64,000 bases of DNA, taken from positions 12,128,001 to 12,192,000 of the forward strand of contig CP086569.2 in the NCBI GenBank assembly GCA_009914755.4. Reading direction: 5' to 3'. The first letter of the stretch is position 1, and each line of letters begins with the position of its first letter. The notes under the pieces are model-generated. The model saw only the letters and a program-made list of their open reading frames with translations. It did not search any database and was not told the origin of the DNA. Positions 1,374 through 56,120 of this stretch are shown here, piece after piece. The stretch comes from the human T2T-CHM13v2.0 reference genome, Homo sapiens. A program made the position numbers and the translations under genes.

Positions 1374-2746
1374 AGGAATGGACTCGAAAGAAATGGATTG
1401 GAATGGAATGGTCTCCAATGGAATGGACTGGAGTGGAATGCAATCGAATGGAAAGAAAAGAATGGAACGGAATGGAACGGAAAGGAATAGAATGTTATGG
1501 AATCCGATTGAACAGAATGGAATGGAATGCAGTTTCATGAAATGGAGTCGAATAGAGTGGCATCAAAAGGAATGGAATGGAGTGGACCCAAAAGGAATGG
1601 AGTCGAAAGGAATGCAGTCGAACCAAATTGAATCAAATGGATTGGAGTCGAAAAGAATGGAAAGGAATGGAATGAACTCGACTGCAGTAGAGAGGAATTA
1701 AAAGGAATAGAATGGAATGTAATCAAATGGATTGCAAGTGAATGGAATCAAAAATAATAGAAAGGAATGGAGTGTAAAGGGATGATATTGAATTAAATGG
1801 AATGGAATGGAATTTAATGGAATGGAGTCGAAGGAATGGACAGGAATGTAATGGACTCCAATGGAATGGAATGGATCAAAATGGATTTGAACAGATTGGA
1901 ATGGAACGGAATGGAATGCAATGAAATGGAATGGACTCCATCAGAACGGACTGGAGAGGAATGTACACAAATGGAATGGAAACGAATGGAATGGAATGAA
2001 ATGGAATGGAATGCAATGGAATTGAAAGGAACGGAATCAAGTGGAATGGAATGGAATGGAATGGATTGGAATAGAATGGATTCAAATAAAATAGAATCGA
2101 TTGCATTGGTATTGAATGGAAGGGACTTGAATGGAATGGAAAGCAATGGAAGATATTGGAATCGAATGGCATCGAATGAAATGGAATGGAACGGAATGGA
2201 ACGGACCCGAATGGAATGGAATGGACTCAAATGTAATGGACTGGAATGGAATCGACTGAAATATAATAGACTCGAAAGGAATGGCCTCGAGCGGAATTTA
2301 TTTGAATAGAATGGAATCAAATGGAATACAATAGTATGGAATGGAATCGAATGGAATGGAATCGAATGGAATGTAATCAAATGGAATGGAACGGAATTCA
2401 ATATAATGGAGTAGAATGGAATGCATTGGAAAGGAGCAGAGTGGAATCGAGTGGATTGGAATCGAGTGGAATGGAATCAAAGGGAACGAAATCGAATTGA
2501 ATGGACCTGAATGGAATTGAGTCGAAAGGAATTGACTCGAAAGGAATGGACTGGAACAAAAAGGAATCAAATGGACAGGAATGGAATGGAATGGACTCGA
2601 ATGGAATGGAGTCAAATGCAAACGCATCGAATGGAATGGATTCAAATGGAATGCAATTGAATGGAATAGAAAGGAAGAGAATGGAATTGTGAGTAATGGA
2701 AAGATATCGATTGGAATGAAATGGAATGGAAAGGAATTGAATGGAA
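1374..2746 (+). repeat. Representative single 1373 bp array-A HOR unit
   Basis: Bounded by consecutive occurrences of the landmark 'aggaatggactcgaaagaaatgg' at 1374 and 2747. Its internal sequence is repeated almost verbatim in the neighbouring units. Confidence 0.85.
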
Positions 2747-29000: not shown

Positions 29001-31578
29001 GTCGAATAGAGTGGCATCAAAAGGAATGGAATGGAGTGGACTCAAAAGGAATGGACTCGAAAGGAATGGAGTCGAACCAAATTGAATCGAATGTATTGGA
29101 GTCGAACAGAATGGAATGGAATGGAATGAACTCGACTGGAGTAGAGAGGAATGAAAAGGAATAGAATGGAATGTAATCAAATGGATTGCAAGTGAATGGA
29201 ATCAAAAATAATAGAAAGGAATGGAGTGTAAAGGGATGATATTGAATTAAATGGAATGGAATGGAATTTAATGGAATGGAGTCGAAGGAATGGACAGGAA
29301 TGTAATGGACTCCAATGGAATAGAATGGATCAAAATGGATTTGAACAGATTGGAATCGAACGGAATGGAATGCAATGAAATGGAATGGACTCGATCAGAA
29401 CGGACTGCAGAGGAATGTACACAAATGGAATGGAAACGAAAGGAATGGAATGAAATGGAATGGAATGCAATGGAATTGAAAGCAACGGAATCAAATGGAA
29501 TGGAATGTATTGGAATAGAATGGATTGGAATAGAATGGATTCAAATAAAATAGAATCGATTGCAATGGTATTGAATGGAAGGGACTTGAATGGAATGGAA
29601 AGCAATGGAAGATATTGGAATTGAATGGCATCGAATGAAATGGAATGGAGCGGAATGGAACGGACCCGAATGGAATGGAATGGACTCAAATGTAATGGAC
29701 TCGAATGGAATCGACTGAAATATAATAGACTCGAAAGGAATGGCCTCGAGCGGAATTTATTTGTATAGAATGGAATCAAATGGAATACAATAGTATGGAA
29801 TGGAATCGAATGGAATGGAATCTAATGGAATGTAATCAAATGGAATGGAATGGAATTCAATATAATGGAGTAGATTGGAATGCATTGGAAAGGAGCAGAG
29901 TGGAATCGAGTGGATTGGAATTGAGTGGAATGGAATCAAAGGGAACGAAATCGAATTGAACGGACTTGAATGGAATTGAGTCGAAAGGAATTGACTCGAA
30001 AGGAATGGACTGGAACAAAAAGGAATCAAATGGACAGGAATGGAATGGAATGGACTCGAATGGAATGGAGTCAAATGCAAACGCATCGAATGGAATGGAT
30101 TCAAATGGAATGCAATTGAATGGAATAGAAAGGAAGAGAATGGAATTGAGAGTAATGGAAAGATATCGATTGGAATGAAATGGAATGGAAAGGAATTGAA
30201 TGGAAAGGAATGGACTCGAAAGAAATGGATTGGAATGGAATGGTCTCCAATGGAATGGACTGGAGTGGAATGGAATCGAATGGAAAGAAAAGAATGGAAC
30301 GGAATGGAACGGGAAGGAATAGAATGTTATGGAATCCGATTGGACAGAATGGAATGGAATGCAGTTTCATGAAATGGAGTCGAATAGAGTGGCATCAAAA
30401 GGAATGGAATGGAGTGGACTCAAAAGGAATGGACTCGAAAGGAATGGAGTCGAACCAAATTGAATCAAATGGATTGGATTCGAACAGAATGGAATGGAAT
30501 GGAATGAACTCGACTGGAGTAGAGAGGAATGAAAAGGAAAAGAATGGAATGTAATCAAATGGATTGCAAGTGAATGGAATCAAAAATAATAGAAAGGAAT
30601 GGAGTGTAAAGGGATGATATTGAATTAAATGGAATGGAATGGAATTTAATGGAATGGAGTCGAAGGAATAGACAGGAATGTAATGGACTCCAATGGAATG
30701 GAATGGATGAAAATGGATTTGAACAGATTGGAATAGAACGGAATCGAATGCAATGAAATGGAATGGACTCGATCAGAACGGACTGGAGAGGAATGTACAC
30801 AAATGGAATGGAAACGAAAGGAATGGAATGAAATGGAATGGAATGCAATGGAATTGAAAGGAACGGAATCAAATGGAATGGAATGGAATGGAATGGATTG
30901 GAATAGAATGGATTCAAATAAAATAGAATCGATTGCAATGGTATTGAATGGAAGGGACTTGAATGGAATGGAAAGCAATGGAAGATATTGGAATCGAATG
31001 GCATCGAATGAAATGGAATGGAACGGAATGGAACGGACCCGAATGGAATGGAATGGACTCAAATGTAATGGACTCGAATGGAATCGACTGAAATATAATA
31101 GACTCGAAAGGAATGGCCTCGAGCGGAATTTATTTGAATAGAATGGAATCAAATGGAATACAATAGTATGGAATGGAATCGAATGGAATGGAATCGAATG
31201 GAATGTAATCAAATGGAATGGAACGGAATTCAATATAATGGAGTAGAATGGAATGCATTGGAAAGGAGCACAGTGGAATCGAGTGGATTGGAATCGAGTG
31301 GAATGGAATCAAAGGGAACGAAATCGAATTGAATGGACTTGAATGGAATTGCGTCGAAAGGAATTGACTCGAAAGGAATGGACTGGAACAAAAAGGAATC
31401 AAATGGACAGGAATGGAATGGAATGGACTCGAATGGAATGGAGTCAAATGCAAACGCATCGAATGGAATGGATTCAAATGGAATGCAATTGAATGGAATA
31501 GAAAGGAAGAGAATGGAATTGAGAGTAATGGAAAGATATCGATTGGAATGAAATGGAATGGAAAGGAATTGAATGGAA
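26097..31578 (+). repeat. Array A super-repeat copy 2: 5482 bp block of four HOR units (1378+1353+1378+1373 bp)
   Basis: Same order of unit-length variants and shared diagnostic substitutions as 20615-26096. The 20 bp deletion at ~28550 matches the one at ~23068. Confidence 0.8.
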
Positions 31579-34500
31579 AGGAATGGACTCGAAAGAAATG
31601 GATTGGAATGGAATGGTCTCCAATGGAATGGACTGGAGTGGAATGGAATCGAATGGAAAGAAAAGAATGGAACGGAATGGAACGGAAAGGAATAGAATGT
31701 TATGGAATCCGATTGGACAGAATGGAATGGAATGCAGTTTCATGAAATGGAGTCGAATAGAGTGGCATCAAAAGGAATGGAATGGAGTGGACTCAAAAGG
31801 AATGGACTCGAAAGGAATGGAGTCTAACCAAATTGAATCGAATGGATTGGAGTCGAACAGAATGGAATGGAATGGAATGAACTCGACTGGAGTAGAGAGG
31901 AATGAAAAGGAATAGAATGGAATGTAATCAAATGGATTGCAAGTGAATGGAATCAAAAATAATAGAAAGGAATGGAGTGTAAAGGGATGATATTCAATTA
32001 AATGGAATGGAACGGAATTTAATGGAATGGAGTCGAAGGAATGGACAGGAATGTAATGGACTCCAATGGAATGGAATGTATCAAAATGGATTTGAACAGA
32101 TTGGAATGGAACGGAATGGAATGCAATGAAATGGAATGGACTCGATCAGAACGGACTGGAGAGGAATGTACACAAATGGAATGGAAACGAATGGAATGCA
32201 ATGAAATGGAATGGAATGCAATGGAAGTGAAAGGAGCGGAATCAAATGGAATGGAATGGAATGGAATGGAATGGATTGGAATAGAATGAATTTAAATAAA
32301 ATAGAATCGATTGCAATGGTATTGAATGGAAGGGACTTGAATGGAATGGAAAGCAATGGAAGATATTGGAATCGAATGGCATCGAATGAAATGGAATGGA
32401 ACGGAATGGAACGGACCCGAATGGAATGGAATGGACTCAAATGTAATGGACTCGAATGGAATCGACTGAAATATAATAGACTCGAAATGAATGGCCTCGA
32501 GCGGAATTTATTTGAATAGAATGGAATCAAATGGAATACAATAGTATGGAATGGAATCGAATGGAATGGAATCGAATGGAATGTAATCAAATGGAATGGA
32601 ACGGAATTCAATATAATGGAGTAGAATGGAATGCATTGGAAAGGAGCAGAGTGGAATCGAGTGGATTGGAATCGAGTGGAATGGAATCAAAGGGAACGAA
32701 ATCGAATTGAATGGACTTGAATGGAATTGAGTCGAAAGGAATTGACTCGATAGGAATGGACTGGAACAAAAAGGAATCAAATGGACAGGAATGGAATGGA
32801 ATGGACTCGAATGGAATGGAGTCAAATGCAAACGCATCGAATGGAATGGATTCAAATGGAATGCAATTGAATGGAATAGAAAGGAAGAGAATGGAATTGA
32901 GAGTAATGGAAAGATATCGATTGGAATGAAATGGAATGGAAAGGAATTGAATGGAAAGGAATGGACTCGAAAGAAATGGATTGGAATGGAATGGTCTCCA
33001 ATGGAATGGACTGGAGTGGAATGGAATCGAATGGAAAGAAAAGAATGGAACGGAATGGAACGGAAAGGAATAGAATGTTATGGAATCCGATTGGACAGAA
33101 TGGAATGGAATGCAGTTTCATGAAATGGAGTCGAATAGAGTGGCATCAAATGAATGGAATGGAGTGGACTCAAAAGGAATGGACTCGAAAGGAATGGAGT
33201 CGAACCAAATTGAATCGAATGGATTGGAGTCGAACAGAATGGAATGGAATGGAATGAACTCGACTGGAGTAGAGAGGAATGAAAAGGAATAGAATGGAAT
33301 GTAATCAAATGGATTGCAAGTGAATGGAATCAAAAATAATAGAAAGGAATGGAGTGTAAAGGGATGATATTGAATTAAATGGAATGGAATGGAATTTAAT
33401 GGAATGGAGTCGAAGGAATGGACAGGAATGTAATGGACTCCAATGGAATAGAATGGATCAAAATGGATTTGAACAGATTGGAATCGAACGGAATGGAATG
33501 CAATGAAATGGAATGGACTCGATCAGAACGGACTGGAGAGGAATGTACACAAATGGAATGGAAACGAAAGGAATGGAATGAAGTGGAATGGAATGCAATG
33601 GAATTGAAAGCAACGGAATCAAATGGAATGGAATGTATTGGAATAGAATGGATTGGAATAGAATGGATTCAAATAAAATAGAATCGATTGCAATGGTATT
33701 GAATGGAAGGGTCTTGAATGGAATGGAAAGCAATGGAAGATATTGGAATTGAATGGCATCGAATGAAATGGAATGGAACGGAATGGAACGGACCCGAATG
33801 GAATGGAATGGACTCAAATGTAATGGACTCGAATGGAATCGACTGAAATATAATAGACTCGAAAGGAATGGCCTCGAGCGGAATTTATTTGAATAGAATG
33901 GAATCAAATGGAATACAATAGTATGGAATGGAATCCAATGGAATGGAATCGAATGGAATGTAATCAAATGGAATGGAATGGAATTCAATATAATGGAGTA
34001 GATTGGAATGCATTGGAAAGGAGCAGAGTGGAATCGAGTGGATTGGAATCGAGTGGAATGGAATCAAAGGGAACGAAATCGAATTGAATGGACTTGAATG
34101 GAATTGCGTCGAAAGGAATTGACTCGAAAGGAATGGACTGGAACAAAAAGGAATCAAATGGACAGGAATGGAGTGGAATGGACTCGAATGGAATGGAGTC
34201 AAATGCAAACGCATCGAATGGAATGGATTCAAATGGAATGCAATTGAATGGAATAGAAAGGAAGAGAATGGAATTGAGAGTAATGGAAAGCTATCGATTG
34301 GAATGAAATGGAATGGAAAGGAATTGAATGGAAAGGAATGGACTCGAAAGAAATGGATTGGAATGGAATGGTCTCCAATGGAATGGACTGGAGTGGAATG
34401 GAATCGAATGGAAAGAAAAGAATGGAACGGAATGGAACGGAAAGGAATAGAATGTTATGGAATCCGATTGGACAGAATGGAATGGAATGCAGTTTCATGA

Positions 34501-37500
34501 AATGGAGTGGAATAGAGTGGCATCAAAAGGAATGGAATGGAGTGGACTCAAAAGGAATGGACTCGAAAGGAATGGAGTCGAACCAAATTGAATCAAACGG
34601 ATTGGAGTCGAACAGAATGGAATGGAATGGAATGAACTCGACTGGAGTAGAGAGGAATGAAAAGGAATAGAATGGAATGTAATCAAATGGATTGCAAGTG
34701 AATGGAATCAAAAATAATAGAAAGGAATGGAGTGTAAAGGGATGATATTGAATTAAATGGAATGCAATGGAATTTAATGGAATGGAGTCGAAGGAATGGA
34801 CAGGAATGTAATGGACTCCAATGGAATGGAATGGATCAAAATGGATTTGAATAGATTGGAATGGAACGGAATGGAATGCAATGAAATAGAATGGACTCGA
34901 TCAGAACGGACTGGAGAGGAATGTACACAAATGGAATGGAAACGAAAGGAATGGAATGAAATGGAATGGAATGCAATGGAATTGAAAGCAACGGAATCAA
35001 ATGGAATGGAATGTATTGGAATAGAATGGATTGGAATAGATTGGATTCAAATAAAATAGAATCGATTGCAATGGTATTGAATGGAAGGGACTTGAATGGA
35101 ATGGAAAGCAATGGAAGATATTGCAATTGAATGGCATCGAATGAAATGGAATGGAACGGAATGGAACGGACCCGAATGGAATGGAATGGACTCAAATGTA
35201 ATGGACTCGAATGGAATCGACTGAAATATAATAGACTCGAAAGGAATGGCCTCGAGCGGAATTTATTTGAATAGAATGGAATCAAATGGAATACAATAGT
35301 ATGGAATGGAATCCAATGGAATGGAATCGAATGGAATGTAATCAAATGGAATGGAATGGAATTCAATATAATGGAGTAGATTGGAATGCATTGGAAAGGA
35401 GCAGAGTGGAATCGAGTGGACTGGAATCGAGTGGAATGGAATCAAAGGGAACGAAATCGAATTGAACGGACTTGAATGGAATTGAGTCGAAAGGAATTGA
35501 CTCGAAAGGAATGGACTGGAACAAAAAGGAATCAAATGGACAGGAATGGAATGGAATGGACTCGAATGGAATGGAGTCAAATGCAAACGCATCGAATGGA
35601 ATGGATTCAAATGGAATGCAATTGAATGGAATAGAAAGGAAGAGAATGGAATTGAGAGTAATGGAAAGATATCGATTGGAATGAAATGGAATGGAAAGGA
35701 ATTGAATGGAAAGGAATGGACTCAAAAGAAATGGATTGGAATGGAATGGTCTCCAATGGAATGGACTGGAGTGGAATGGAATCGAATGGAAAGAAAAGAA
35801 TGGAACGGAATGGAACGGAAAGGAATAGAATGTTATGGAATCCGATTGGACAGAATGGAATGGAATGCAGTTTCATGAAATGGAGTCGAATAGAGTGGCA
35901 TCAAAAGGAATGGAATGGACTGGATTCAAAAGGAATGGACTCGAAAGGAATGGAGTCGAACCAAATTGAATCAAATGGATTGGATTCGAACAGAATGGAA
36001 TGGAATGGAATGAACTCGACTGGGGTAGAGAGGAATGAAAAGGAATAGAATGGAATGTAATCAAATGGATTGCAAGTGAATGGAATCAAAAATAATAGAA
36101 AGGAATGGAGTGTAAAGGGATGATATTGAATTAAATGGAATGGAATGGAATTTAATGGAATGGAGTCGAAGGAATGGACAGGAATGTAATGGACTCCAAT
36201 GTAATGGAATGGATCAAAATGGATTTGAACAGATTGGAATCGAACGGAATGGAATGCAATGAAATGGAATGGACTCGATCAGAACGGACTGGAGAGGAAT
36301 GTACACAAATGGAATGGAAACGAAAGGAATGGAATGAAATGGAATGGAATGCAATGGAATTGAAAGGAACGGAATCAAATGGAATGGAATGGAATGGAAT
36401 GGATTGGAATAGAATGGATTCAAATAAAATAGAATCGATTGCAATGGTATTGAATGGAAGGGACTTGAATGGAATGGAAAGCAATGGAAGATATTGGAAT
36501 CGAATGGCATCGAATGAAATGGAATGGAACGGAATGGAACGGACCCGAATGGAATGGAATGGACTCAAATGTAATGGACTCGAATGGAATCGACTGAAAT
36601 ATAATAGACTCGAAAGGAATGGCCTCGAGCGGAATTTATTTGAATAGAATGGAATCAAATGGAATACAATAGTATGGAATGGAATCGAATGGAATGGAAT
36701 CGAATGGAATGTAATCAAATGGAATGGAACGGAATTCAATATAATGGAGTAGAATGGAATGCATTGGAAAGGAGCAGAGTGGAATCGAGTGGATTGGAAT
36801 CGAGTGGAATGGAATCAAAGGGAACGAAATCGAATTGAATGGACTTGAATGGAATTGCGTCGATAGGAATTGACTCGAAAGGAATGGACTGGAACAAAAA
36901 GGAATCAAATGGACAGGAATGGAATGGAATGGACTCGAATGGAATGGAGTCAAATGCAAACGCATCGAATGGAATGGATTCAAATGGAATGCAATTGAAT
37001 GGAATAGAAAGGAAGAGAATGGAATTGAGAGTAATGGAAAGATATCGATTGGAATGAAATGGAATGGAAAGGAATTGAATGGAAAGGAATGGACTCGAAA
37101 GAAATGGATTGGAATGGAATGGTCTCCAATGGAATGGACTGGAGTGGAATGTAATCGAATGGAAAGAAAAGAATGGAACGGAATGGAACGGAATGGAATA
37201 GAATGTTATGGAATCCGATTGGACAGAATGGAATGGAATGCAGTTTCATGAAATGTATTGGAATATAGTGGCATCAAAAGGAATGGAATGGAGTGGACTC
37301 AAAAGGAATGGACTCGAAAGGAATGGAGTCGAACCAAATTGAATCAAATGGATTGCAGTCGAACAGAATGGAATGGAATGGAATGAACTCGACTAGAGTA
37401 GAGAGGAATGAAAAGGAATAGAATGGAATGTAATCAAATGGATTGCAAGTGAATGGAATCAAAAATAATAGAAAGGAATGGAGTGTAAAGAGATGATATT

Positions 37501-37999
37501 GAATTAAATGGAATGGAATGGAATTTAATGGAATGGAGTCGAAGGAATGGACAGGAATGTAATGGACTCCAATGGAATGGAATGGATCAAAATGGATTTG
37601 AATAGATTGGAATGGAACGGAATGGAATGCAATGAAATGGAATGGACTCGATCAGAACGGACTGGAGAGGAATGTACACAAATGGAATGGAAACGAAAGG
37701 AATGGAATGAAATGGAATGGAATGCAATGGAATTGAAAGGAACGGAATCAAATGGAATGGAATGGTATGGAATGGATTGGAATAGAATGGATTCAAATAA
37801 AATAGAATCGATTGCAATGGTATTGAATGGAAGGGACTTGAATGGAATGGAAAGCAATGGAAGATATTGGAATCGAATGGCATCGAATGAAATGGAATGG
37901 AACGGAATGGAACGAACCCGAATGGAATGGAATGGACTCAAATGTAATGGACTCGAATGGAATCGAATGAAATATAATAGACTCGATAGGAATGGCCTC

Positions 38000-38250
38000 G
38001 AGCGGAATTTATTTGAATAGAATGGAATGAAATGGAATACAATAGTATGGAATGGAATCGAATGGAATGGAATCGAATGGAATGTAATCAAATGGAATGG
38101 AACGGAATTCAATATAATGGAGTAGAATGGAATGCATTGGAAAGGAGCAGAGTGGAATCGAGTGGATTGGAATCGAGTGGAATGGAATCAAAGGGAACGA
38201 AATCGAATTGAACGGACTTGAATGGAATTGAGTTGAAAGGAATTGACTCG
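38000..38250 (+). other. In-register transition from array-A-type to array-B-type sequence within shared homologous sequence
   Basis: Upstream (37547-38020) the pseudo-ORF is A-type ('...ESIAMVLNG...'). From ~38218 the diagnostic variants are B-type ('DSNGVESNANAS', 'GMQFNG', 'TPLHSS', later 'MEWSFMK' and the 30 bp deletion). The landmark spacing 37085 to 38458 is still 1373 bp, so no non-satellite junction sequence exists. Confidence 0.65.
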
Positions 38251-39066
38251 AAAGGAATGGACTGGAACAAAAAGGAATCAAATGGACAGGAATGGAATGG
38301 AATGGACTCGAATGGAGTGGAGTCAAATGCAAACGCATCGAATGGAATGGATTCAAATGGAATGCAATTCAATGGAATAGAAAGGAAGAGAATGGAATTG
38401 AGAGTAATGGAAAGATATCGATTGGAATGAAATGGAATGGAAAGGAATTGCATAGAAAGGAATGGACTGGAAAGAAATGGATTGGAATGGAATGCTCTCC
38501 AATGGAATGGACTGGATTGGAATGGAATCGAATGGAATGTAAAGAATGGAACGGAATGGAACGGAAAGGAATAGAATGTTATGGAATCCGATTGGACAGA
38601 ATGGAATGGAATGGAGTTTCATGAAATGGAGTCGAACAGAGTGGCATCAAAAGGAATGGAATGGAATGGAGTGGACTCAAAAGGAATGGACTCGAAAGGA
38701 ATGGAGTCGAACAGAATGGAATGGAATGGAATGAACTCGACTGGAGTAGAGAGGAATGTAAAGGAATAGAATGGAATGTAATCAAATGGATTGCAAGTGA
38801 ATGGAATCAAAAATAATAGAAAGGAATGGAGTGTAAAGAGATGATATTGAATAAAAGGGAATGGAATAGAATTTAATGGAATGGAGTCTCAGGAATGGAC
38901 AGGAATGTAATGGACTCCAATGGAATGGAATGGATCAAAATGGATTTGAACAGATTGGAATCGAACGCAATGGAATGCAATGGAATGGAATGGACTCGAA
39001 TGGAGAAGAGACAAATGGAATGGAAACGAATTCAATGGAATTGAAAAGAATAGAATGGAATGGCCT

Positions 39067-42000
39067 GTAATGGTAAGATACTAAATGGAATGGAATTGAA
39101 TGGAATGTAGTTTAATGGACCCAAATGTAATGCACTCGAATGGAATATACTGAAATAGAATGGAATCGAAAGGAAAGGTCTCAAATGGAATTTCTTCAAT
39201 ATAATGGAATCGAATGGAATGCAATAGAATGGAAAGGAATCGAATGTAATGGAATCAAATAGAATGGACCAGAATGGAATGGACTGCGATAGAACGTACT
39301 GCAGTGTAAAGGATTGAATTCTAATTCATTCAAATGGAATGGAATTGAATGGAATGGAATCCAATGGAATGGATAGGATTGTACTGGAATGGAATAGCAT
39401 GGAATGCAACGGAGTGGAATGGAGTTGAATGAAGTGGAATGGAATCGATTGGAATGGAATCAAATGGAATGGACGGGAATGGAATGGACTGGAAGAGAAC
39501 AGACTCGAATATAATGGATTGCAATGTAATTGATTGAAATGGAATGGAATCAAATGGAATGTAATAAAATTGAAGGGATTGGAGTTCAATGCAATGAAAT
39601 AGAATGGAATGCAAAGGAAAGGAAAGGCACGGAGTGAAATCGAGTGTAATGGAATCGAATGGAATGAAATCGAATGGAATGGACTCAAAAGAAATGGACG
39701 AGGGACAAAACGGAATCGAACTGTTTGGAATCGAATGGAACGGAATGGAATGGAATGGTCTCCATTGGATGGGAGTAGAACGGATTGGAATGAAATGGAA
39801 TGGAAAGGAATAGAATGGAATGGAAAGGAATGGAAGGTAATGGAAAGATATCGAACGGATTGGAAAGGAATGGAATGGACGCTAATGGAATGGAGTGAAA
39901 TTCAACAGAAACGAATGGAATGGACAGGAGTGAAATGGAGTCGAATGTAATTGACTGGAGAGGAATGGGCTCGAAAGGAATGGACTCAAATAGAATGGAC
40001 TGGAATGGATTGTACTCGAATGGAGTGGAAAGGAATAAAATGGATTCCACCAGATTGGAATGGAACAGAATGTAATGGAATGGAATGGAATGCAATGGAA
40101 TGGCTCGAATGGAATGGAGTCGAATGCAATGGAAGAGAAAGGAAAGGAATTGGATGGAATTGAAAGTAATAGAATGAAATGGAGTGCAAAGGAAAGATAT
40201 CGAATGGAATGGATCGAAAAGAAATAGAATGGAATTGACAGGAATGGAATGGAATAGAATGGAATAGACTGGCGTGAAATGAAAACGAATGGAATGGAAA
40301 CGAATGGAATGGAATGGAAAGGAATGGAGTAGAATAAATACTATGGAATGGAATGGAATGGAATGGAATGGAGGCGAAAGGAAAAGAATGGATTGGAATG
40401 TCACCGAATGGAAAGATATGGAATGGAAAGGAATGGATACGAATGGAATGGAATAGAAAGGAACGGAAAGGTAAAGAATGGAATGGAATCGGATAGAATG
40501 GAATGCAATGTAATGGAGTCGAATGGAAAATAATCGAGTAGAATGATATCGAATGGAATGGAATGGAATGGACTCGAATGGAATGTACTCAAATGGATTA
40601 GAATAGAATGGAATGGAACTAAACGTAATGAACTCGAATGGAATGGACACAAATAGAATGGAAGAGAAAGGAATGGTATTGAATGGAATTTATTCGAATA
40701 GAATGGAATTCAATGGAATGCAACAGTGTGGCATGGAATCAAATGGAATGGAATCGAATGGAATGGACCCGAGTGGAATGGACTCACATAGAACAGCCTC
40801 GAATGTAATGGATGACAATGTATTAGATTCGAAAGGACTGAAATCGAATGGAATGTAATCAAATAGAACGGAATTGAATGCATGGAATGGCATAGAAAGT
40901 AATGCAATGGAATGGAATAGACTGGAATGGAATGGAATCGGATGGAATGTAATGAAATGTAATGGAAGGAATGCCATGGAATGGAATGGAATGGAATGCA
41001 ATGGCCCGGTGTATAATGGAGTGCAATGGATTTCAGTGGAATGTAGTCAAAAGGAATGAAATAGAATGGAATTCAATATAATGGAATGGCATCCAATGGC
41101 AAGGAATGGAGCGGACTCCAATGGAAACGACATGAAAGGAATATAATATAATGGAATGGCATTGAACGAAATGGAATGCAATGGGGTTAAAAGGTAAAAT
41201 ATCGAATGGAAAAGAATTGAATGGACTCGAATGGAATATAATGGAATGGAATGGTCTCGAATGGAATGTACTAGAGTTGAATGGAATCGAATGGAATGGA
41301 AAACAATGGAAAGGAAAGGAAGGGAATTGAAAGGAAAGGAATAGAATGGAATGGAATCGGATGGAACAGAATTGAATGGAATGGAAACTAAAGGAATAGA
41401 ATAGAAAGCAATGGCATTGAATGGAATGGAAATGAATGGAATCAGATGGAACAGAAAGGAATGGAATGGCATCGAATGGATTGGAATGGAATGTAATGGA
41501 ATGGAATGGAAAGGAATGGAATGGACTCAAATGGAATGTACTCAAATGGAATAGAATAGAATGGAATAGAAGTAAATATAATGGACTCGAGAGGAATGGA
41601 TTGGAATAAATTGGAATTGAATGTATTGGATTCGAATGGAAAGGAATGGAATGGAATGGAATGGAATGGATTCGAATGGAATGGAACGAATTGGAATGTA
41701 ATTGAATGGAGTCGAAAACAGTAGAAAGAAAAGAAGTTTAATCGAATGATATCGAATGGAATTGAATGGAATGTACGCGAATGGAATGGACTGGAATGGA
41801 ATGGAATGACATACAATGGAATCGAAAGGATTGGAATCGAATGAAATGGAATTGAATGGAATACAAAAGAATAGAAAGGAATGGAGTTTAATGGAAAGAT
41901 ATTAAAGGTAATGGAATGGAATTGAGTGGACACAAATGGAAAGGACTGGAATGGAAAGGACTCGAATGAAATGGACCGCATTAGAATGGACTCGAATGGA

Positions 42001-44552
42001 ACGGATTGGTGTGGAATGATCTCGAATGGATTGGAAACGAATGGAATGGAAAAGAATAGAATGGAATGTAATCAAATGGAACGAAATGTAATGGAATGGA
42101 TTCGACTGGAACAGAATTGAATGGAGTGGAGTGGAATGGAATGGAATGCAATCGAATGGAATGGACACGAATGGAATAGAATGAAATGAAATGGCATAGA
42201 ATGGAATGGAATCAATCGAATGGAATGGAATGGAATGGAATGGAATGGAATGGAATGGAATGGATGGAATGGAATGGCATGGAATGGAATGGAATGGCAT
42301 GGAATGAAATTTATTGGAATGGGATGGGCCCAAAAGTAATGGACTCAAATAAAAGGGACTCAAATAGAATGAATTGTAAAGAAACGGTCTCGAATGTAAT
42401 TTCTTTGAATAGAATGATATTGAACGGAATGCAATAGTATGGAATGGTATCGAATAGAATGGAATGGAATGGAACGGAATGGAGTGCATTTGAACGGACT
42501 CAAATGCAATAAATTGCAATATAATTGATTCAAATGGAATGAAATCGAATAGAATGTAAACAAATGGAATGGAAGGCAATGCAATGGAAAGGAATCGAAT
42601 GAAATGGAATAAATGGGATGGAATCGAATGGAAAGGACGCGAATATAATGGACTGTTAAGGAAAGGTCTCGAATCGAATTTATTCCAATAGAATGGAATC
42701 GAATGGAATGCAATACTATTGAATCGAATCGAATGGAATGGAATTGAATGGAATGGACAGGAATGGAATGAACTGGAAGTGAATGGACAAGAACGTAATA
42801 TACTGCAATGTAATTTATTCAAATGGAATGGAAAGCAATCGAATGGAATGGACGCGATTGCAATGGACTGGAGTGGAATGGACTGAAATGGAATGGAAAC
42901 GAATGTAATGGAATGGAACGGAAAGCAAAGGAATCTACCGGAATGGAATCGAACGGAACAGAAAGGAATGGAATAGAATGGAGTGGAATGGACTCGAATG
43001 GAATGTATTCGAATGTAATGGACCTGAAAGGAATGTAATCCAATGGAATGGAATGGAATGGAATCAAAAGGAATAGAAAGGAATAGAGTGTAATTGAATG
43101 ATATCGAATGGAAGGGAATGGAATGAACTCGAATGGAATGCACTGGAATGGAATGGACTCGATCAGAACGGACTGGAGAGGAATGTACACAAATGGAATG
43201 GAAACGAATGGAATGGAATGCAATGGAATTGAAAGGAACGGAATCAAATGGAATGGAATGGAATGGAATGGATTGGAATAGAATGGATTCAAATAAAATA
43301 GAATCGATTGGAATGGTATTGAATGGAAGGGACTTGAATGGAATGGAAAGCAATGGAAGATATTGGAATCGAATGGCATCGAATGAAATGGAATGGAACG
43401 GAATGGAACGGACCCGAATGGAATGGAATGGACTCAAATGGAATGGACTCGAATGGAATCGACTGAAATATAATAGACTCGAATGGAATGGCCTCGAGCG
43501 GAATTTATTTGAATAGAATGGAATCAAATGGAAAACAATAGTATGGAATGGAATGGAATCGAATGGAATGTAATCAAATGGAATGGAACGGAATTCAATA
43601 TAATGGAGTAGAATGGAATGCATTGGAAAGGAGCAGAGTGGAATCGAGTGGATTGGAATCGAGTGGAATGGAATCAAAGGGAACGAAATCGAATTGAATG
43701 GACTTGAATGGAATTGAGTGGAAAGGAATTGACTCGAAAGGAATGGACTGGAACAAAAAGGAATCAAATGGACAGGAATGGAATGGAATGGACTCGAATG
43801 GAGTGGAGTCAAATACAAACGCATCGAATGGAATGGATTCAAATGGAATGCAATTCAATGGAATAGAAAGGAAGAGAATGGAATTGAGAGTAATGGAAAG
43901 ATATCGATTGGAATGAAATGGAATGGAAAGGAATTGCATGGAAAGGAATGGACTCGAAAGAAATAGATTGGAATGGAATGGTCTCCAATGGAATGGACTG
44001 GAGTGGAATGGAATCGAATGGAATGAAAAGAATGGAACGGAATGGAACGGAAAGGAATAGAATGTTATGGAATCCGATTGGACAGAATGGAATGGAATGG
44101 AGTTTCATGAAATGGAGTCGAATACAGTGGCATCAAAAGAAATGGAATGGAATGGAGTGGACTCAAAAGGAATGGACTCGAAAGGAATGGAGTCGAACAG
44201 AATGGAATGGAATGGAATGAACTCGACTGGAGTAGAGAGGAATGTAAAGGAATAGAATGGAATGTAATCAAATGGATTGCAAGTGAATGGAATCAAAAAT
44301 AATAGAAAGGAATGGAGTGTAAAGGGATGATATTGAATAAAATGGAATGGAATGGAATTTAATGGAATGGAGTCTCAGGAATGGACAGGAATGTAATGGA
44401 CTCCAATGGAATGGAATGGATCAAGATGGATTTGAACAGATTGGAATCGAACGGAATGGAATGCAATGGAATGGAATGGACTCGAATGGAGAAGAGACAA
44501 ATGGAATGGAAACGAATTCAATGGAATTGAAAAGAATAGAATGGAATGGCCT
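39067..44552 (+). repeat. Array B HOR copy 1 (5486 bp)
   Basis: Bounded by the 'ctgtaatggtaagatactaaatgg' landmark at 39065 and 44551. Confidence 0.85.
43120..44470 (+). repeat. Array-A-like ~1.35 kb element embedded in B HOR copy 1; equivalent elements lie at ~48630-49980, ~54121-56040 and ~60160-61530
   Basis: The sequence runs from A-unit offset ~590 ('ggaatggactcgatcagaacggactggagaggaatgtacacaaatgg') through the A unit end, then A offset 0 to ~600, which is a circular permutation of a full A unit. It carries B-specific variants ('ggaatggagtttcatg' for 'ggaatgcagtttcatg', 'atcgattggaatggtattg', 'gtggagtcaaat', 'caattcaatgg') and a ~30 bp deletion of the direct repeat 'ccaaattgaatcaaatggattggagtcgaa'. 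Pseudo-ORFs there match array-A ones, e.g. 43133 versus 12834. Confidence 0.8.
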
Positions 44553-47500
44553 GTAATGGTAAGATACTAAATGGAATGGAATTGAATGGAATGTAGTGGA
44601 ATGGACGCAAATGTAATGCACTCGAATGGAATATACTCAAATAGAATGGAATCGAAAGGAAAGGTCTCAAATGGAATTTATTCAATACAATGGAATCGAA
44701 TGGAATGCAATAGAATGGAAAGGAATCGAATGTAATGGAATCAAATAGAATGGACCAGAATGGAATGGACTGCCATAGAACGGACTGCAGTGTAAAGGAT
44801 TGAATTCAAATTCATTCAAATGGAATGGAATTGAATGGAATGGAATCCAATGGAATGGATAGGATTGTACTGGAATGGAATAGCATGGAATGCAACGGAG
44901 TGGAATGGAGTTGAATGAAGTAGAATGGAATCGATTGGAATGGAATCAAATGGAATGGACGGGAATGGAATGGACTGGAAGAGAACAGACTCGAATATAA
45001 TGGATTGTAATGTAATTGATTCAGATGGAATGGAATCGAATGGAATGTAATAAAATTGAAGGGATTGGAGTCCAATGCAATGAAATAGAATGGAATGCAA
45101 AGGAAAGGAAAGGCACGGAGTGAAATCGAGTGTAATGGAATCGAATGGAATGAAATCGAATGGAATGGACTCAAAAGAAATGGACGAGGGACAAAACGGA
45201 ATCGAACTGATTGGAATCGAATGGAACGGAATGGAATGGAATGGTCTCCATTGGATGGGAGTAGAACGGATTGGAATGAAATGGAATGGAAAGGAATAGA
45301 ATGGAATGGAAAGGAATGGAAGATAATGGAAAGATATCGAACGGATTGGAAAGGAATGGAATGGACGCTAATGGAATGGAGTGGAATTCAACAGAAACGA
45401 ATGGAATGGACTGGAGTGAAATGGAGTCGAATGTAATTGACTGGAGAGGAATGGGCTCGAAAGGAATGGACTCGAATAGAATGGACTGGAATGGATTGTA
45501 CTCTAATGGAGTGGAAAGGAATAAAATGGATTCCACCAGATTGGAATGGAACAGAATGTAATGGAATGGAATGGAATGGAATGGAATGGCACGAATGGAA
45601 TGGAGTCGAATGCAATGGAAGAGAAAGGAAAGGAATTGGATGGAATTGAAAGTAATAGAATTAAATAGAGCGCAAAGGAAAGATATCGAATGGAATGGAT
45701 CGAAAAGAAATAGAATGGAATGGACAGGAATGGAATGGAATAGAATGGAATAGACTGGCGTGAAATGAAAACGAATGGAATGGAAACGAATGGAATGGAA
45801 TGGAAAGGAATGGAGTAGAATAAATACTATGGAATGGAATGGAATGGAATGGAGGCGAAAGGAAAAGAATGGATTGGAATGTCACCGTATGGAAAGATAT
45901 GGACTGGAAAGGAATGGATACGAATGGAATGGAATAGAAAGGAACGGAAAGGTAAAGAATGGAATGGAATCGGATAGAATGGAATGCAATGTAATGGAGT
46001 CGAATGGAAAATAATCGAGTAGAATGATATCGAATGGAATGGAATGGAATGGAATGGACTCGAATGGAATGTACTCAGATGGATTAGAATAGAATGGAAT
46101 GGAACTAAACGTAATGAACTCGAATGGAATGGACACAAATAGAATGGAAGAGAAAGGAATGGTATTGAATGGAATTTATTCGAATAGAATGGAATTCAAT
46201 GGAATGCAACAGTGTGGCATGGAATCAAATGGAATGGAATCGAATGGAAAGGACCCGAGTGGAATGGACTCACATAGAACAGCCTCGAATGTAATGGATG
46301 ACAATGTATTAGATTCGAAAGGACTGAAATCGAATGGAATGTAATCAAATAGAACGGAATTGAATGCATGGAATGGCATAGAAAGTAATGCAATGGAATG
46401 GAATAGACGGCAATGGAATGGAATCGGATGGAGTGTAATGAAATGTAATGGAAGGAATGCCATGGAATGGAATGGAATGGAATGCAATGGGACGGTGTAT
46501 AATGGAGTGCCATGGATTTCAGTGGAATGCAGTCAAAAGGAATGAAATAGAATGGAATTCAATATAATGGAATGGCATCCAATGGCAAGGAATGGAGCAG
46601 ACTCCAGTGGAAACGACAAGAAAGGAATATAATATAATGGAATGGCATTGAACGAAATGGAATGCAATGGAGTTAAAAGGTAAAATATCGAAAGGAAAAG
46701 AATTGAATGGACTCGAATGGAATATAATGGAATGGAATGGATTCGAATGGAATGTACTAGAGTTGTATGGAATCGAATGGAATGGAAAACAATGGAAAGG
46801 AAAGGAAGGGAATTGAAAGGAAAGGAATAGAATAGAATGGAATCGGATGGAACAGAATTAAATGGAATGGAAATTAAAGGAATAGAATAGAAAGGAATGG
46901 CATTGAATGGAATGGAAATGAATGGAATCAGATGGAACAGAAAGGAATGGAATAGAATCGAATGGAATGGCAACGAATGGATTGGAATGGAATGTAATGG
47001 AATGGAATGGAAAGGAATGGAATGGACTCAAATGGAATGTACTCAAATGGAATAGAATAGAATGGAATGGAAGTAAATATAATGGACTCGAGTGGAATGG
47101 ATTGGAATAAATTGGAATTGAATGTATTGGATTCGAATGGAAAGGAATGGAATGGAATGGAATGGAATGGAATGGATTCGAGTGGAATGGAACGAATTGG
47201 AATGTAATTGAATGGAGTCGAAAACAGTAGAAAGAAATAAAGTATAATCGAATGATATCGAATGGAATTGAATGGAATGTACGCAAATGGAATTGACTGG
47301 AATGGAATGGAATGACATGTAATGGAATCGAAAGGAATGGAATCGAATGAAATGGAATTGAATGGAATAGAAAGGAATAGAATGGAATGGAGTTTAATGG
47401 AAAGATATTAAAAGTAATGGAATGGAATTGAGTGGACACAAATGGAATGGACTGGAATGGAAAGGACTCGAATGAAATGGAGCGCATTAGAATGGACTCG

Positions 47501-50060
47501 AATGGAACGGATTGGTGTGGAATTGTCTCGAATGGATTGGAAACGAATGGAATGGAAAAGAATAGAATGGAATGTAATCAAATGGAACGAAATGGAATGG
47601 AATGGATTCGACTGAAACAGAATTAACTGGAGTGGAATTGAATGGAATGGAATGCAATCGAATGGAATGGACACGAATGGAATAGAATGAAATGAAATGG
47701 CATAGAATGGAATGGAATGGAATGGAATGGAATGGAATGGAATGGAATGGAATGGAATGGAATGCATTGGAATGGAATGGAATGGCATGGCATGGAATGG
47801 AATGGCATGGAATGAAATGGATTGGAATGGAATGGGTCCAAAAGTAATGGACTCAAATAAAAGGGACTGAAATAGAATGAATTGTAAAGAAACGGTCTCG
47901 AATGTAATTTATTCGAATAGAATGATATTGAATGGAATGCGATAGTGTAGAATGGTATCGAATAGAATGGAATGGAATGGAACGGAATGGAGTGCATTTG
48001 AACGGACTCAAATGCAATAAATTGCAATATAATTGATTCAAATGGAATGAAATCGAATAGAATGTAAACAAATGGAATGGAAGGCAATGCAATGGAAAGG
48101 AATCGAATGAAATGGAATAAATGGGATGGAATCGAATGGAAAGGACGCGAATATAATGGACTGTTAAGGAAAGGTCTCGAATCGAATTTATTCCAATAGA
48201 ATGGAATCGAATGGAATGCAATACTATTGAATCGAATCGAATGGAATGGAATTGAATGGAATGGACAGGAATGGAATGAACTGGAAGTGAATGGACAAGA
48301 ACGTAATATATTGCAATGTAATTTATTCAAATGGAATGGAAAGCAATCGAATGGAATGGACGCGATTGCAATGGACTGGAGTGGAATGGACTGAAATGGA
48401 ATGGAAACGAATGCAATGGAATGGAAAGGAAAGCAAAGGAATCTACCCGAATGGAATCGAACGGAACAGAAAGGAATGGAATAGAATGGAGTGGAATGGA
48501 CTCGAATGGAATGTATTTGAATGTAATGGACCTGAAAGGAATGTAATCCAATGGAATGGAATTGAATGGAATCAAAAGGAATAGAAAGGAATAGAGTGTA
48601 ATTGAATGATATCGAATGGAAGGGAATGGAATGAAGTCGAATGGAATGCACTGGAATGGAATGGACTCGATCAGAACGGACTGGAGAGGAATGTACACAA
48701 ATGGAATGGAAACGAATGGAATGGAATGAAATGGAATTGAAAGGAACGGAATCAAATGGAATGGAATGGAATGGAATGGATTGGAATAGAATGGATTCAA
48801 ATAAAATAGAATCGATTGGAATGGTATTGAAAGGAAGGGACTTGAATGGAATGGAAAGCAATGGAAGATATTGGAATCTAATGGCATCGAATGAAATGGA
48901 ATGGAACGGAATGGAACGAACCCGAATGGAATAGAATGGACTCAAATGTAATGGACTCGAATGGAATCGACTGAAATATAATAGACTCGAAAGGAATGGC
49001 CTCGAGCGGAATTTATTTGAATAGAATGGAATCAAATGGAAAACAATAGTCTGGAATGGAATGGAATCGAATGGAATGTAATCAAATGGAATGGAACGGA
49101 ATTCAATATAATGGAGTAGAATGGAATGCATTGGAAAGGAGCAGAGTGGAATCGAGTGGATTGGAATCGAGTGGAATGGAATCAAAGGGAACGAAATGGA
49201 ATTGAATGGACTTGAATGGAATTGAGTGGAAAGGAATTGACTCGAAAGGAATGGACTGGAACAAAAAGGAATCAAATGGACAGGAATGGAATGGAATGGA
49301 CTCGAATGGAGTGGAGTCAAATGCAAACGCATCGAATGGAATGGATTCAAATGGAATGCAATTCAATGGAATAGAAAGGAAGAGAATGGAATTGAGAGTA
49401 ATGGAAAGATATCGATTGGAATGAAATGGAATGGAAAGGGATTGCATGGAAAGGAATGGACTCGAAAGAAATGGATTGGAATGGAATGGTCTCCAATGGA
49501 ATGGACTGGAGTGGAATGGAATCGAATGGAATGAAAAGAATGGAACGGAATGGAACGGAAAGGAATAGAATGTTATGGAATCCGATTGGACAGAATGGAA
49601 TGGAATGGAGTTTCATGAAATGGAGTCGAATAAAGTGGCATCAAAAGAAATGGAATGGAATGGAGTGGACTCAAAAGGAATGGACTCGAAAGGAATGGAG
49701 TCGAACAGAATGGAATGGAATGGAATGAACTCGACTGGAGTAGAGAGGAATGTAAAGGAATAGAACGGAATGTAATCAAATGGACTGCAAGTGAATGGAA
49801 TCAAAAATAATAGAAAGGAATAGAGTGTAAAGGGATGATATGGAATAAAATGGAATGGAATGGAATTTAATGGAATGGAGTCTCAGGAATGGACAGGAAT
49901 GTAATGGACTCCAATGGAATGGAATGGATCAAAATGGATTTGAACAGATTGGAATCGAACGCAATGGAATGCAATGGAATGGAATGGACTCGAATGGAGA
50001 AGAGACAAATGGAATGGAAACGAATTCAATGGAATTGAAAAGAATAGAATGGAATGGCGA
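44553..50060 (+). repeat. Array B HOR copy 2 (5508 bp)
   Basis: Bounded by the landmark at 44553 and 50061. Confidence 0.85.
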
Positions 50061-56000: not shown

Positions 56001-56120
56001 TGAACAGATTGGAATCGAACGCAATGGAATGCAATGGAATGGAATGGACTCGAATGGAGAAGAGACAAATGGAATGGAAACGAATGCAATGGAATTGAAA
56101 AGAATAGAATGGAATGGCGT
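50061..56120 (+). repeat. Array B HOR copy 3 (6060 bp), a long variant carrying an extra ~568 bp partial A-like unit
   Basis: Bounded by the landmark at 50061 and 56121. The extra length maps to ~54200-54770, where A-unit sequence (offset ~85-650) is present a second time. Confidence 0.8.

What the first reader, a model, noticed from the sequence alone, without database searches (positions are those of the whole stretch)
37900..39100. Seamless junction between a 1.37 kb-HOR array and a 5.5 kb-HOR array, joined through a shared homologous segment
The sequence switches from array-A diagnostic variants to array-B diagnostic variants somewhere between ~38.02 and ~38.22 kb. Unit phase is preserved (37085 to 38458 is still 1373 bp). 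B-specific non-A sequence begins only at ~38960 ('ggactcgaatggagaagagacaaatgg ... cctgtaatggtaagatactaaatgg'). An in-register junction like this is what unequal homologous exchange between the two arrays would produce, using the A-like element carried inside every B unit. I found no insertion, no inversion and no unique sequence at the boundary.
Basis: seen in the sequence. Interest (0 to 1): 0.55.

Follow-up and report, generated by a model that had tools for sequence, protein, structure and literature searches.

The report
Scarless period change in human satellite 3
This is an ordinary change of repeat length inside a human satellite 3 array (probably on the Y chromosome), where a long run of 1.37 kb units meets the same unit-to-spacer boundary that recurs in every 5.5 kb unit downstream.

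Summary
The core observation holds. Positions 1-38999 are a run of 1373/1378 bp units (28 full units plus 0.41). From 39000 on, the repeat is 5.5 kb (periods 5486, 5508, 6050, 5491). The change is in register, with no insertion, inversion or unique DNA. Two coordinates need correcting. Spacer-specific DNA starts at 39000, not about 38960. There are no fixed A/B markers between 37816 and 38316, so the variant switch lies in that interval, most likely 38214-38316.

Each 5.5 kb unit is one 1.37 kb unit plus a 32 bp overlap plus a 4.13 kb spacer. The unit-to-spacer boundary at 38999/39000 recurs identically five times. The "B-type" variants are a spacer-linked haplotype covering the last 0.7 kb of every spacer-adjacent unit, not a signature unique to the junction.

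The window is best read as one composite nested tandem repeat with 28+, 1, 1, 1.41 and 1 units between spacers. Human skin-metagenome contigs show the same layout with 1 or 2 units. A published 24-mer assigns the sequence to HSat3A3, a Y-chromosome subfamily. This kind of local change in period is already described for human satellites, so interest is low.

The parts
1..38999 (+). Run of 1.37 kb units ('array A'): 28 full units (1-38457) plus a terminal 0.41 unit. It contains 28 A-A joints, the last at 37605-37660. The left end of the run lies outside the window.
37620..38999 (+). Junction element J: the last unit-plus-32 bp (A-phase 536 round to 567) before the first spacer. It is colinear with the element in each 5.5 kb unit.
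38214..38316 (+). Best estimate of the interval where J changes from A-type to spacer-linked (B-type) variants. The conservative interval from fixed markers is 37816-38316.
38317..38999 (+). Spacer-linked (B-type) tract of J. B-type bases are at 38317, 38370, 38451, 38538, 38614, 38759, 38853, 38889-90 and 38983. There is a 5 bp GAATG insertion at 38659-38663 and a 30 bp deletion after 38701. In A units those 30 bp are bounded by an 11 bp direct repeat, TGGAGTCGAAC.
38968..38999 (+). Right-hand copy of the 32 bp direct repeat (CAATGGAATGCAATGGAATGGAATGGACTCGA), immediately before the spacer. The left-hand copy follows the spacer in every B unit.
39000..43130 (+). Spacer XY, copy 1 (4131 bp). 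It is pentamer-derived but resembles A only at background level (~69-70%).
43131..44485 (+). Element B2: one A-like unit plus 32 bp. It has 15 bp and 10 bp deletions shared only with B3.
44486..48638 (+). Spacer XY, copy 2 (4153 bp)
48639..49993 (+). Element B3
49994..54135 (+). Spacer XY, copy 3 (4142 bp)
54136..56053 (+). Element B4, holding 1.41 units. A-phase 536-620 is joined out of register (about 54199-54220, at a CGAATGGAA microhomology) to A-type phase 61-1373, then phase 1-567. It contains a true A-A joint at 54659-54714. This explains the 6050 bp period.
56054..60164 (+). Spacer XY, copy 4 (4111 bp)
60165..61544 (+). Element B5
61545..64000 (+). Spacer XY, copy 5 (cut by the end of the window)

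Best explanation
The window is one composite nested tandem repeat of human satellite 3. The subfamily is HSat3A3, so it is most likely the pericentromeric block on Yq.

The repeat has two building blocks: a 1.37 kb unit (A) and a 4.13 kb spacer (XY). Spacers are separated by a variable number of A units. In this window the numbers are 28 or more, 1, 1, 1.41 and 1.

The 'junction' at 38-39 kb is the normal unit-to-spacer boundary, met for the first time after a long run of units.

In the 5.5 kb unit, the 1.37 kb segment is bounded by two near-identical 32 bp direct repeats. Recombination or slippage between them gives exactly the A-A joint. The run then grows and shrinks by in-register unequal exchange, which leaves no scar. 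If the array is on the male-specific Y, that exchange is between sister chromatids.

The last ~0.7 kb next to each spacer carries a spacer-linked haplotype. Crossovers and conversions that homogenise A units cannot replace sequence beyond the last exchange point next to non-homologous DNA. This also covers the first ~0.2 kb after each spacer.

Shown directly: the anatomy, the repeated boundaries, the marker distribution and the variable unit number. Inferred: the direction of events (whether the 5.5 kb unit or the 1.37 kb run came first), the exchange mechanism and the chromosomal location.
For: - The A-like element in every B unit spans A-phase 536 round to 567, which is one unit plus 32 bp. 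The two 32-mers and the A-A joint are printed.
- Exact boundary counts in the window: unit-to-spacer 5, spacer-to-unit 4, A-A joint 29 (28 in the run and 1 inside B4). All have 0 expected by chance.
- If a pre-existing A array had been captured at random, the leftover fraction of a unit would be arbitrary. A fraction as small as 32 of 1373 bp has a chance of only about 2-5%.
- Events separating A from B: 3 in element columns 0-200, 0 in columns 201-701, and 10 in columns 702-1415. In the centre, B-to-A distances (10.8-19) equal A-to-A distances (12.3). In the right part they are 23-28 against 13.5. Under a uniform distribution, zero events in the central 501 bp has P of about 0.003 (my calculation).
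- The extra 559 bp in B4 is A-type: it keeps the 30 bp that all B right parts lack, and it scores 440-454 against A units but 380-390 against B right parts.
- In 19 human metagenome contigs that hold the exact 40-mer boundary, the same flanks enclose 1 unit (L002, L003, L004, L010) or 2 units (L006, L009, L014, L015). Six more contigs have an A-A joint one unit before the spacer.
- Four contigs have 51-64 bp terminal overlaps, as expected for circular paths through tandem units of 5564, 7571, 8929 and 8939 bp.
Against: - The left end of the A run is outside the window, so nesting of the run inside a 5.5 kb unit is not seen directly.
- Polarity is unresolved. The 30 bp difference looks like a deletion in the B type (11 bp direct repeats flank it in A). 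That means the spacer-linked haplotype is at least partly derived rather than a relic, so some later exchange among spacer-adjacent copies is needed.
- The metagenome contigs come from short-read assemblies of a high-copy repeat. They can be consensus-like or chimeric. None carries J's private variants.
- Only four B elements are available to define 'B-type'.
Confidence: 0.65

Rival explanations
1. Two arrays that already existed separately (1.37 kb and 5.5 kb) were fused by a single unequal homologous crossover. The crossover was between an A unit and the A-like element of a B unit, and the crossover point is the variant switch in J.
For: - J is a clean one-switch mosaic. It is A-type at 37632, 37635 and 37815, and carries A-array minor alleles up to 38213. 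It is B-type at every marker from 38317 to 38983.
- The mosaic needs 16 events, against 21 for all-B and 29 for all-A.
- The spacer-linked 30 bp deletion appears derived, so J's right part probably did receive sequence from another B unit at some time.
- The junction is in register and has no scar.
Against: - The mosaic beats 'all-B' by only 5 events. At least 3 of them are sites within 200 bp of where the spacer would otherwise sit.
- The same A-like-then-B-type pattern is present in B4b and B5, and underlies B2 and B3. It is therefore not a signature of an event at J.
- The one-unit-plus-32 bp element, B4 with 1.41 units, and contigs with 2 units show that the arrays are not independent.
Confidence: 0.2
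2. The 1.37 kb array came first. A 4.13 kb block of other satellite 3 DNA was inserted into it, with a 32 bp duplication of the target. The segment [unit + spacer] was then amplified as a 5.5 kb unit by unequal exchange between the A units on either side.
For: - This model gives the same topology, so it also explains the one-unit-plus-32 bp element and the repeated boundaries.
- It fits the apparent polarity of the 30 bp indel, with the A type ancestral.
- It fits variants confined to the unit edges next to the spacer.
- The A unit carries the most common HSat3A3 24-mer, so it is probably the most abundant component.
- Kilobase-scale indels with short overlaps do occur in the spacer: 4.13 kb against 6.2 kb versions.
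Against: - It needs an unusual event, a 4 kb insertion with a 32 bp target duplication. The alternative needs only a tandem duplication between short direct repeats.
- No source for the spacer was identified.
- There is no outgroup, so polarity is untested.
Confidence: 0.3
3. Assembly artefact: a false join of two real arrays through the shared 1.4 kb element.
For: The shared element is 97-99% identical between the arrays and is longer than many read overlaps. No reads are available here.
Against: - J has about 15 private variants on both sides of the switch, and the flanking units are ordinary.
- The arrangement 'A-A joint, one unit, then spacer' is assembled independently in at least 10 contigs from other samples.
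- The same arrangement exists inside B4 in this window.
Confidence: 0.04

Closest known systems
Nested tandem repeats (NTRs) of human satellites 2 and 3, with locally varying periodicity (Altemose et al., bioRxiv 10.1101/2021.07.12.452052; T2T-Y, bioRxiv 10.1101/2022.12.01.518724)
   Same: The DNA is pentamer-derived and organised in kilobase units without discrete monomers. The period changes within one array. Those authors interpret such changes as hyper-local expansion.
   Different: Here the relation between the two periods is resolved to the base. The short unit is the segment of the long unit that lies between two 32 bp direct repeats. I found no published description of this particular junction, but the T2T figures and supplements could not be inspected.
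DYZ1 (HSat3A6), the ~3.6 kb nested tandem repeat of Yq12
   Same: It is a Y-linked HSat3 nested repeat. It evolves by unequal exchange and tandem duplication, and sister-chromatid exchange has been observed there.
   Different: It is a different subfamily. The window carries the HSat3A3 24-mer and none of the HSat3A6 24-mer. The unit sizes also differ: 1.37/5.5 kb against 3.6 kb.
Alpha-satellite higher-order repeats: structural variants and layered expansion
   Same: Variant units differ by whole sub-units. They arise by in-register unequal crossover, leave scarless boundaries and show local homogenisation.
   Different: There is no monomer hierarchy here. The 4.13 kb spacer is not an in-register multimer of the 1.37 kb unit, so 'HOR' does not apply.
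Unequal crossing-over model of tandem repeat evolution, with array edges escaping homogenisation (Smith 1976 and later work; from my own knowledge)
   Same: It predicts in-register expansion and contraction. It also predicts that repeat copies next to non-homologous DNA keep their own variants. The spacer-adjacent 0.7 kb and 0.2 kb show this pattern.
   Different: This is a general model rather than a family. It does not say whether the short or the long unit came first.

Membership tests
Human satellite 3 (HSat3) | Derived from the pentamer (CATTC)n = (GGAAT)n | tested here: met
   TRF reports periods of 10/15 bp over 2-64000 with consensus GGAATGGAAT. GGAATGGAAT occurs 938 times and its reverse complement 0 times.
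HSat3 subfamily A3 (Altemose 2014, PMC4022460, Table 1; chrY-specific) | Carries the subfamily-specific 24-mer CTTTACACTCCATTCCTTTCTATT and not those of other subfamilies | tested here: met
   The reverse complement occurs 30 times, about once per A unit and in some B elements. The listed 24-mers of 12 other HSat2/3 subfamilies tested occur 0 times. Only one published 24-mer per subfamily was available, so the test is thin.
HSat3 subfamily A3 / Y pericentromeric satellite block (DYZ17 region) | Located on the Y chromosome next to the centromere | not testable with these tools
   No human assembly is searchable here. The location is inferred from the published chrY specificity of HSat3A3 and from the description of HSat3 and DYZ17 arrays distal to DYZ3. 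The exact 40-mer is found in human skin metagenome contigs, which supports a human origin only.
Nested tandem repeat (NTR) | Long repeat unit built from a diverged simple repeat, not from a whole number of similar monomers | tested here: met
   Units are 1373/1378 bp and 5486-5508 bp. TRF finds no intermediate period.
Higher-order repeat (HOR) in the alpha-satellite sense | The unit is a whole number of similar-length monomers that are diverged copies of each other | tested here: not met
   5.49 kb is close to 4 x 1373 bp, but tiles of the spacer align to the A unit at scattered offsets and background scores, not at the in-register offset of 567. In-register identity is about 68-70%, which is background.
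Junction made by one unequal homologous crossover between two independent arrays | In-register, scarless join inside a shared homologous segment | tested here: met
   The alignment to the A consensus is ungapped through 38665, and homology continues to 38999.
Junction made by one unequal homologous crossover between two independent arrays | A variant switch that is specific to the junction copy | tested here: not met
   All B elements are A-like in columns 200-700 and B-type from column 702. J differs from them only at three sites within 200 bp of its left end and at private or minor alleles.
Tandem amplification of a segment bounded by short direct repeats | In the progenitor unit the amplified segment is flanked by direct repeats, and the new joint is a recombinant of them | tested here: met
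   Left 32-mer: GAATGGAATGCACTGGAATGGAATGGACTCGA. Right 32-mer: [C/G]AATGGAATGCAATGGAATGGAATGGACTCGA. They lie one unit apart. The A-A joint is GAATGGAATGCAATGAAATGGAATGGACTCGA, which is right-type at offset 12 and has one A-specific change at offset 15.
Tandem amplification of a segment bounded by short direct repeats | The run is flanked on both sides by the progenitor's own flanks | tested here: inconclusive
   The right flank (the spacer) is present at 39000. The left end of the run lies beyond position 1 of the window. Contigs with 2 units do show both flanks.

The most novel reading that the evidence does not exclude
The 1.37 kb periodicity was born from the 5.5 kb unit by recombination between two 32 bp direct repeats, and such births and expansions recur (1, 1.41, 2 and 28+ units between spacers). 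The array is probably on the non-recombining Y. Each step could therefore be placed on the Y phylogeny, giving a dated, base-resolved record of how a new satellite period arises and how far homogenisation reaches next to a heterology (about 0.2-0.7 kb).
Probability: 0.4. Interest if true: 0.35.

Novelty: new member of a known kind. Interest (0 to 1): 0.2.

Why it matters
The value is mainly as a clean worked example. It shows to the base how a short satellite period and a long one are related: the short unit is the sub-segment between two 32 bp direct repeats. It also shows that a 'junction between two arrays' in a satellite can simply be a change in the copy number of one component of a composite unit. 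If the Y location is confirmed, the many complete Y assemblies would allow rates of expansion, contraction and conversion to be measured on a known genealogy. It changes nothing about how satellites are thought to evolve.

Tried and rejected
- **Is the 5.5 kb unit a diverged tetramer of the 1.37 kb unit?** 4131 bp is close to 3 x 1377, and a 5482 bp super-period exists inside array A. Rejected: spacer tiles match A at scattered offsets and background scores. Two stretches (spacer 1407-1996 and 2205-2800) score slightly above background against A-phase ~530-1230. This was not pursued.
- **Inversion or foreign insert at the boundary.** None found.
- **Do the metagenome contigs represent the same locus as J?** No. 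None carries J's private variants, and the contigs are consensus-like.
- **Contaminated bacterial and archaeal genomes.** A scan for the boundary 40-mer gave 0 hits.
- **Polarising A/B differences by closeness to the GGAAT motif.** The signals were mixed, so this was abandoned. This was by eye only, with no tool result.
- **Published periodicity and structure of HSat3A3/DYZ17.** The review by Altemose (2022, Semin Cell Dev Biol) is not held. The supplements of the two Y-chromosome preprints gave nothing usable.
- **Lax BLAST settings.** They extend alignments at ~69-70% across any satellite 3 sequence and are useless for finding boundaries. Strict settings were needed.
Full report
**What the window is.**
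- The whole 64 kb is (GGAAT)n-derived satellite on one strand. TRF reports periods of 10/15 bp over 2-64000.
- GC skew is +0.56 to +0.62 in every 2 kb window. ATTCCATTCC never occurs. There is therefore no inversion anywhere.
- The reverse complement of CTTTACACTCCATTCCTTTCTATT occurs 30 times. That 24-mer is listed in Table 1 of Altemose et al. 2014 (PMC4022460) as the most common one specific to HSat3A3, a chrY-specific subfamily. The listed 24-mers of 12 other HSat2/3 subfamilies that I tested occur 0 times.
- An exact 40-mer from the window is present in 19 contigs of human (skin) metagenome assemblies. It is absent from one genome per bacterial or archaeal species.
- The sequence is therefore human satellite 3, most likely from the HSat3/DYZ17 block distal to the Y centromere described. 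That location is an inference and was not tested.

**Checking the observation.**
- Self-comparison in 1 kb chunks and unit extraction give 28 units of 1373/1377/1378 bp from 1 to 38457, with two 1353 bp variants. A repeat with periods 5486, 5508, 6050 and 5491 bp follows.
- Strict alignment to the A consensus shows that 36001-38665 aligns without a gap.
- Homology to A continues to 38999 (A-phase 567).
- There is no insertion, inversion or unique DNA at the boundary. The core observation is real.

**Anatomy of the 5.5 kb unit.**
- In every B unit the A-homologous element begins at A-phase 536 and ends at A-phase 567. That is one full unit plus a 32 bp overlap.
- One search prints the ends. After the spacer comes GAATGGAATGCACTGGAATGGAATGGACTCGA. 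One unit later, just before the next spacer, comes [C/G]AATGGAATGCAATGGAATGGAATGGACTCGA.
- The A-A joint in the run, GAATGGAATGCAATGAAATGGAATGGACTCGA, is what recombination between these two direct repeats would give, plus one A-specific change at offset 15.
- Pattern searches confirm the counts. The unit-to-spacer boundary occurs five times, identically, with its first base at 38992, 44478, 49986, 56046 and 61537. The spacer-to-unit boundary occurs four times. The A-A joint occurs 29 times: 28 in the run, the last at 37605-37660, and one at 54659-54714 inside the fourth B unit.
- That unit (B4) explains the 6050 bp period. After 85 bp of its element it jumps out of register, at a short CGAATGGAA microhomology, to A-phase 61. 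It then continues through a full A-type unit. The extra 559 bp keeps the 30 bp that all B right parts lack, and it matches A units far better than B right parts.
- The window therefore reads as spacers separated by 28+, 1, 1, 1.41 and 1 A units.

**The variant switch.**
- I aligned 27 overlapping A elements, J (37620-38999) and the four B elements.
- Events that separate all B elements from A are found at columns 12, 15 and 200, next to the left flank.
- They are then found only from column 702 onward. In J coordinates these are 38317, 38451, 38538, 38614, a 5 bp insertion at 38659-63, a 30 bp deletion after 38701, 38759, 38853, 38889-90 and 38983. 38370 is shared with B2 and B3 only.
- None lies in columns 201-701.
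- Distances agree. In columns 0-599 the B elements differ from A units by 10.8-19 events, and A units differ from each other by 12.3. In columns 702-1414 the figures are 23-28 against 13.5.
- With 13 events, none in the central 501 of 1415 columns has a probability of about 0.003 under uniformity (my calculation).
- J is A-type at the three left markers and B-type at every right marker.
- A breakpoint scan gives 16 events for a mosaic, 21 for all-B and 29 for all-A. The plateau is 38060-38316, but its left edge at 38060 comes from tied B-consensus columns. On fixed markers the conservative interval is 37816-38316.
- J also carries alleles otherwise seen only in some A units. 37967A, 37987T and 38029G are shared with A12 and A14. 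38213C is shared with A16, A18, A20, A22 and A26. These suggest the switch is in 38214-38316. With only four B elements sampled, this is suggestive only.
- The key point is that the change from A-like to B-type near column 700 is shared by all spacer-adjacent elements. It is a property of the repeated unit, not of the junction.

**Related sequence from other people.**
- The 19 metagenome contigs were oriented and annotated against the A consensus and the spacer.
- Four contigs have spacer, one unit plus 32 bp, spacer (L002, L003, L004, L010).
- Four have two units plus 32 bp, which is 2778 bp at 99.75-99.9% identity to the A consensus (L006, L009, L014, L015).
- Six more start inside an A unit and show an A-A joint one unit before the spacer.
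- L010, L003, L009 and L015 have terminal overlaps of 51-64 bp. These indicate circular assembly paths, meaning tandem units of 5564, 7571, 8929 and 8939 bp.
- The longer forms carry a 6.2 kb spacer with about 1.95 kb that is absent from the window.
- In these contigs the unit next to the spacer is mostly A-type, except for the site 16 bp from the spacer. The B-type tract therefore seems to be a local haplotype of the 5.5 kb units in this window.
- Caveat: these are short-read assemblies of a high-copy repeat, so they are consensus-like and possibly chimeric. None carries J's private variants.

**Explanation.**
- The best reading is a single composite nested tandem repeat in which the number of 1.37 kb units between spacers varies. 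The 38-39 kb junction is the ordinary unit-to-spacer boundary.
- A leftover fraction of only 32 of 1373 bp is expected if the A-A joint arose by recombination or slippage between the two 32 bp repeats of a 5.5 kb unit. It is equally expected if the spacer entered an A array with a 32 bp duplication. It would be a 2-5% coincidence if a random piece of an independent A array had been captured.
- Runs then expand and contract by in-register unequal exchange, which leaves no scar.
- Variants confined to the 0.2 kb and 0.7 kb next to the spacer fit the known tendency of copies next to non-homologous DNA to escape homogenisation (general model, from my own knowledge).
- Which component came first is unresolved. 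The 30 bp difference looks like a deletion in the B type, because in A it is bounded by the 11 bp direct repeat TGGAGTCGAAC. This means J's right part shares a derived state with the other B units.
The mechanism class is right, but the picture of two independent arrays and a junction-specific crossover signature is not.
- An assembly artefact cannot be excluded without reads. It is unlikely, given J's private variants on both sides of the switch and the independent contigs with the same arrangement.

**Comparison with what is known.**
- Altemose et al. (10.1101/2021.07.12.452052) introduced the term nested tandem repeat for kilobase HSat2/3 units. [quoted passage not shown]
- The T2T-Y paper describes the 3.6 kb DYZ1 nested repeat, evolution by unequal exchange, and periodicity scans in 50 kb blocks across the Y.
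- The present case is a further example of that kind, resolved to the base.
- It is not an HOR in the alpha-satellite sense. The spacer is not an in-register multimer of the short unit.

**Verdict.** Interest is 0.2.

Noticed in passing
window 20615-31578: There is a very recent four-unit (5482 bp) tandem duplication inside the 1.37 kb run. Units A16-A19 (unit lengths 1378, 1353, 1378, 1373) and A20-A23 differ by only 1-6 alignment columns per unit. Typical unit pairs differ by about 30.
   Followed up: partly
window 6866-20614: Units of 1377/1378 bp and 1373 bp mostly alternate here, giving a 2751 bp dimer period. The first five units (1-6865) are all 1373 bp. Mean differences are lower at lags of 2 and 4 units than at odd lags.
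   Followed up: partly
window 54136-56053: One 5.5 kb unit holds 1.41 A units. An out-of-register join at a CGAATGGAA microhomology (about 54199-54220) connects A-phase ~620 to phase ~61. The added 559 bp is A-type and creates a genuine A-A joint at 54659-54714.
   Followed up: yes
loci L003, L009, L012, L015 (e.g. L009 6559-8509): Human metagenome contigs carry a longer spacer (~6.2 kb). It has about 1.95 kb that is absent from the window, inserted between window-spacer positions ~2806 and ~2780 with a ~27 bp overlap. This gives tandem units of ~7.57 kb (one A unit) and ~8.93 kb (two A units).
   Followed up: partly
window 43131-44485 and 48639-49993: Elements B2 and B3 share a 15 bp and a 10 bp deletion that the other B elements lack. 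Elsewhere these two 5.5 kb units are 98.5-98.8% identical, so they look like a recent duplicate pair.
   Followed up: no
window 40406-40995 and 41204-41799 (spacer positions 1407-1996 and 2205-2800): Two stretches of the spacer align to A-phase ~530-1230 with scores somewhat above background (185-205 against ~150-176 per 400 bp tile). This may reflect an old relationship between parts of the spacer and the A unit.
   Followed up: no
window 38454-38540: Five private substitutions of the junction unit cluster within 90 bp just right of the switch interval (38454A, 38469G, 38495C, 38517T, 38540T). They would serve as markers for tracing this particular junction in other assemblies.
   Followed up: partly
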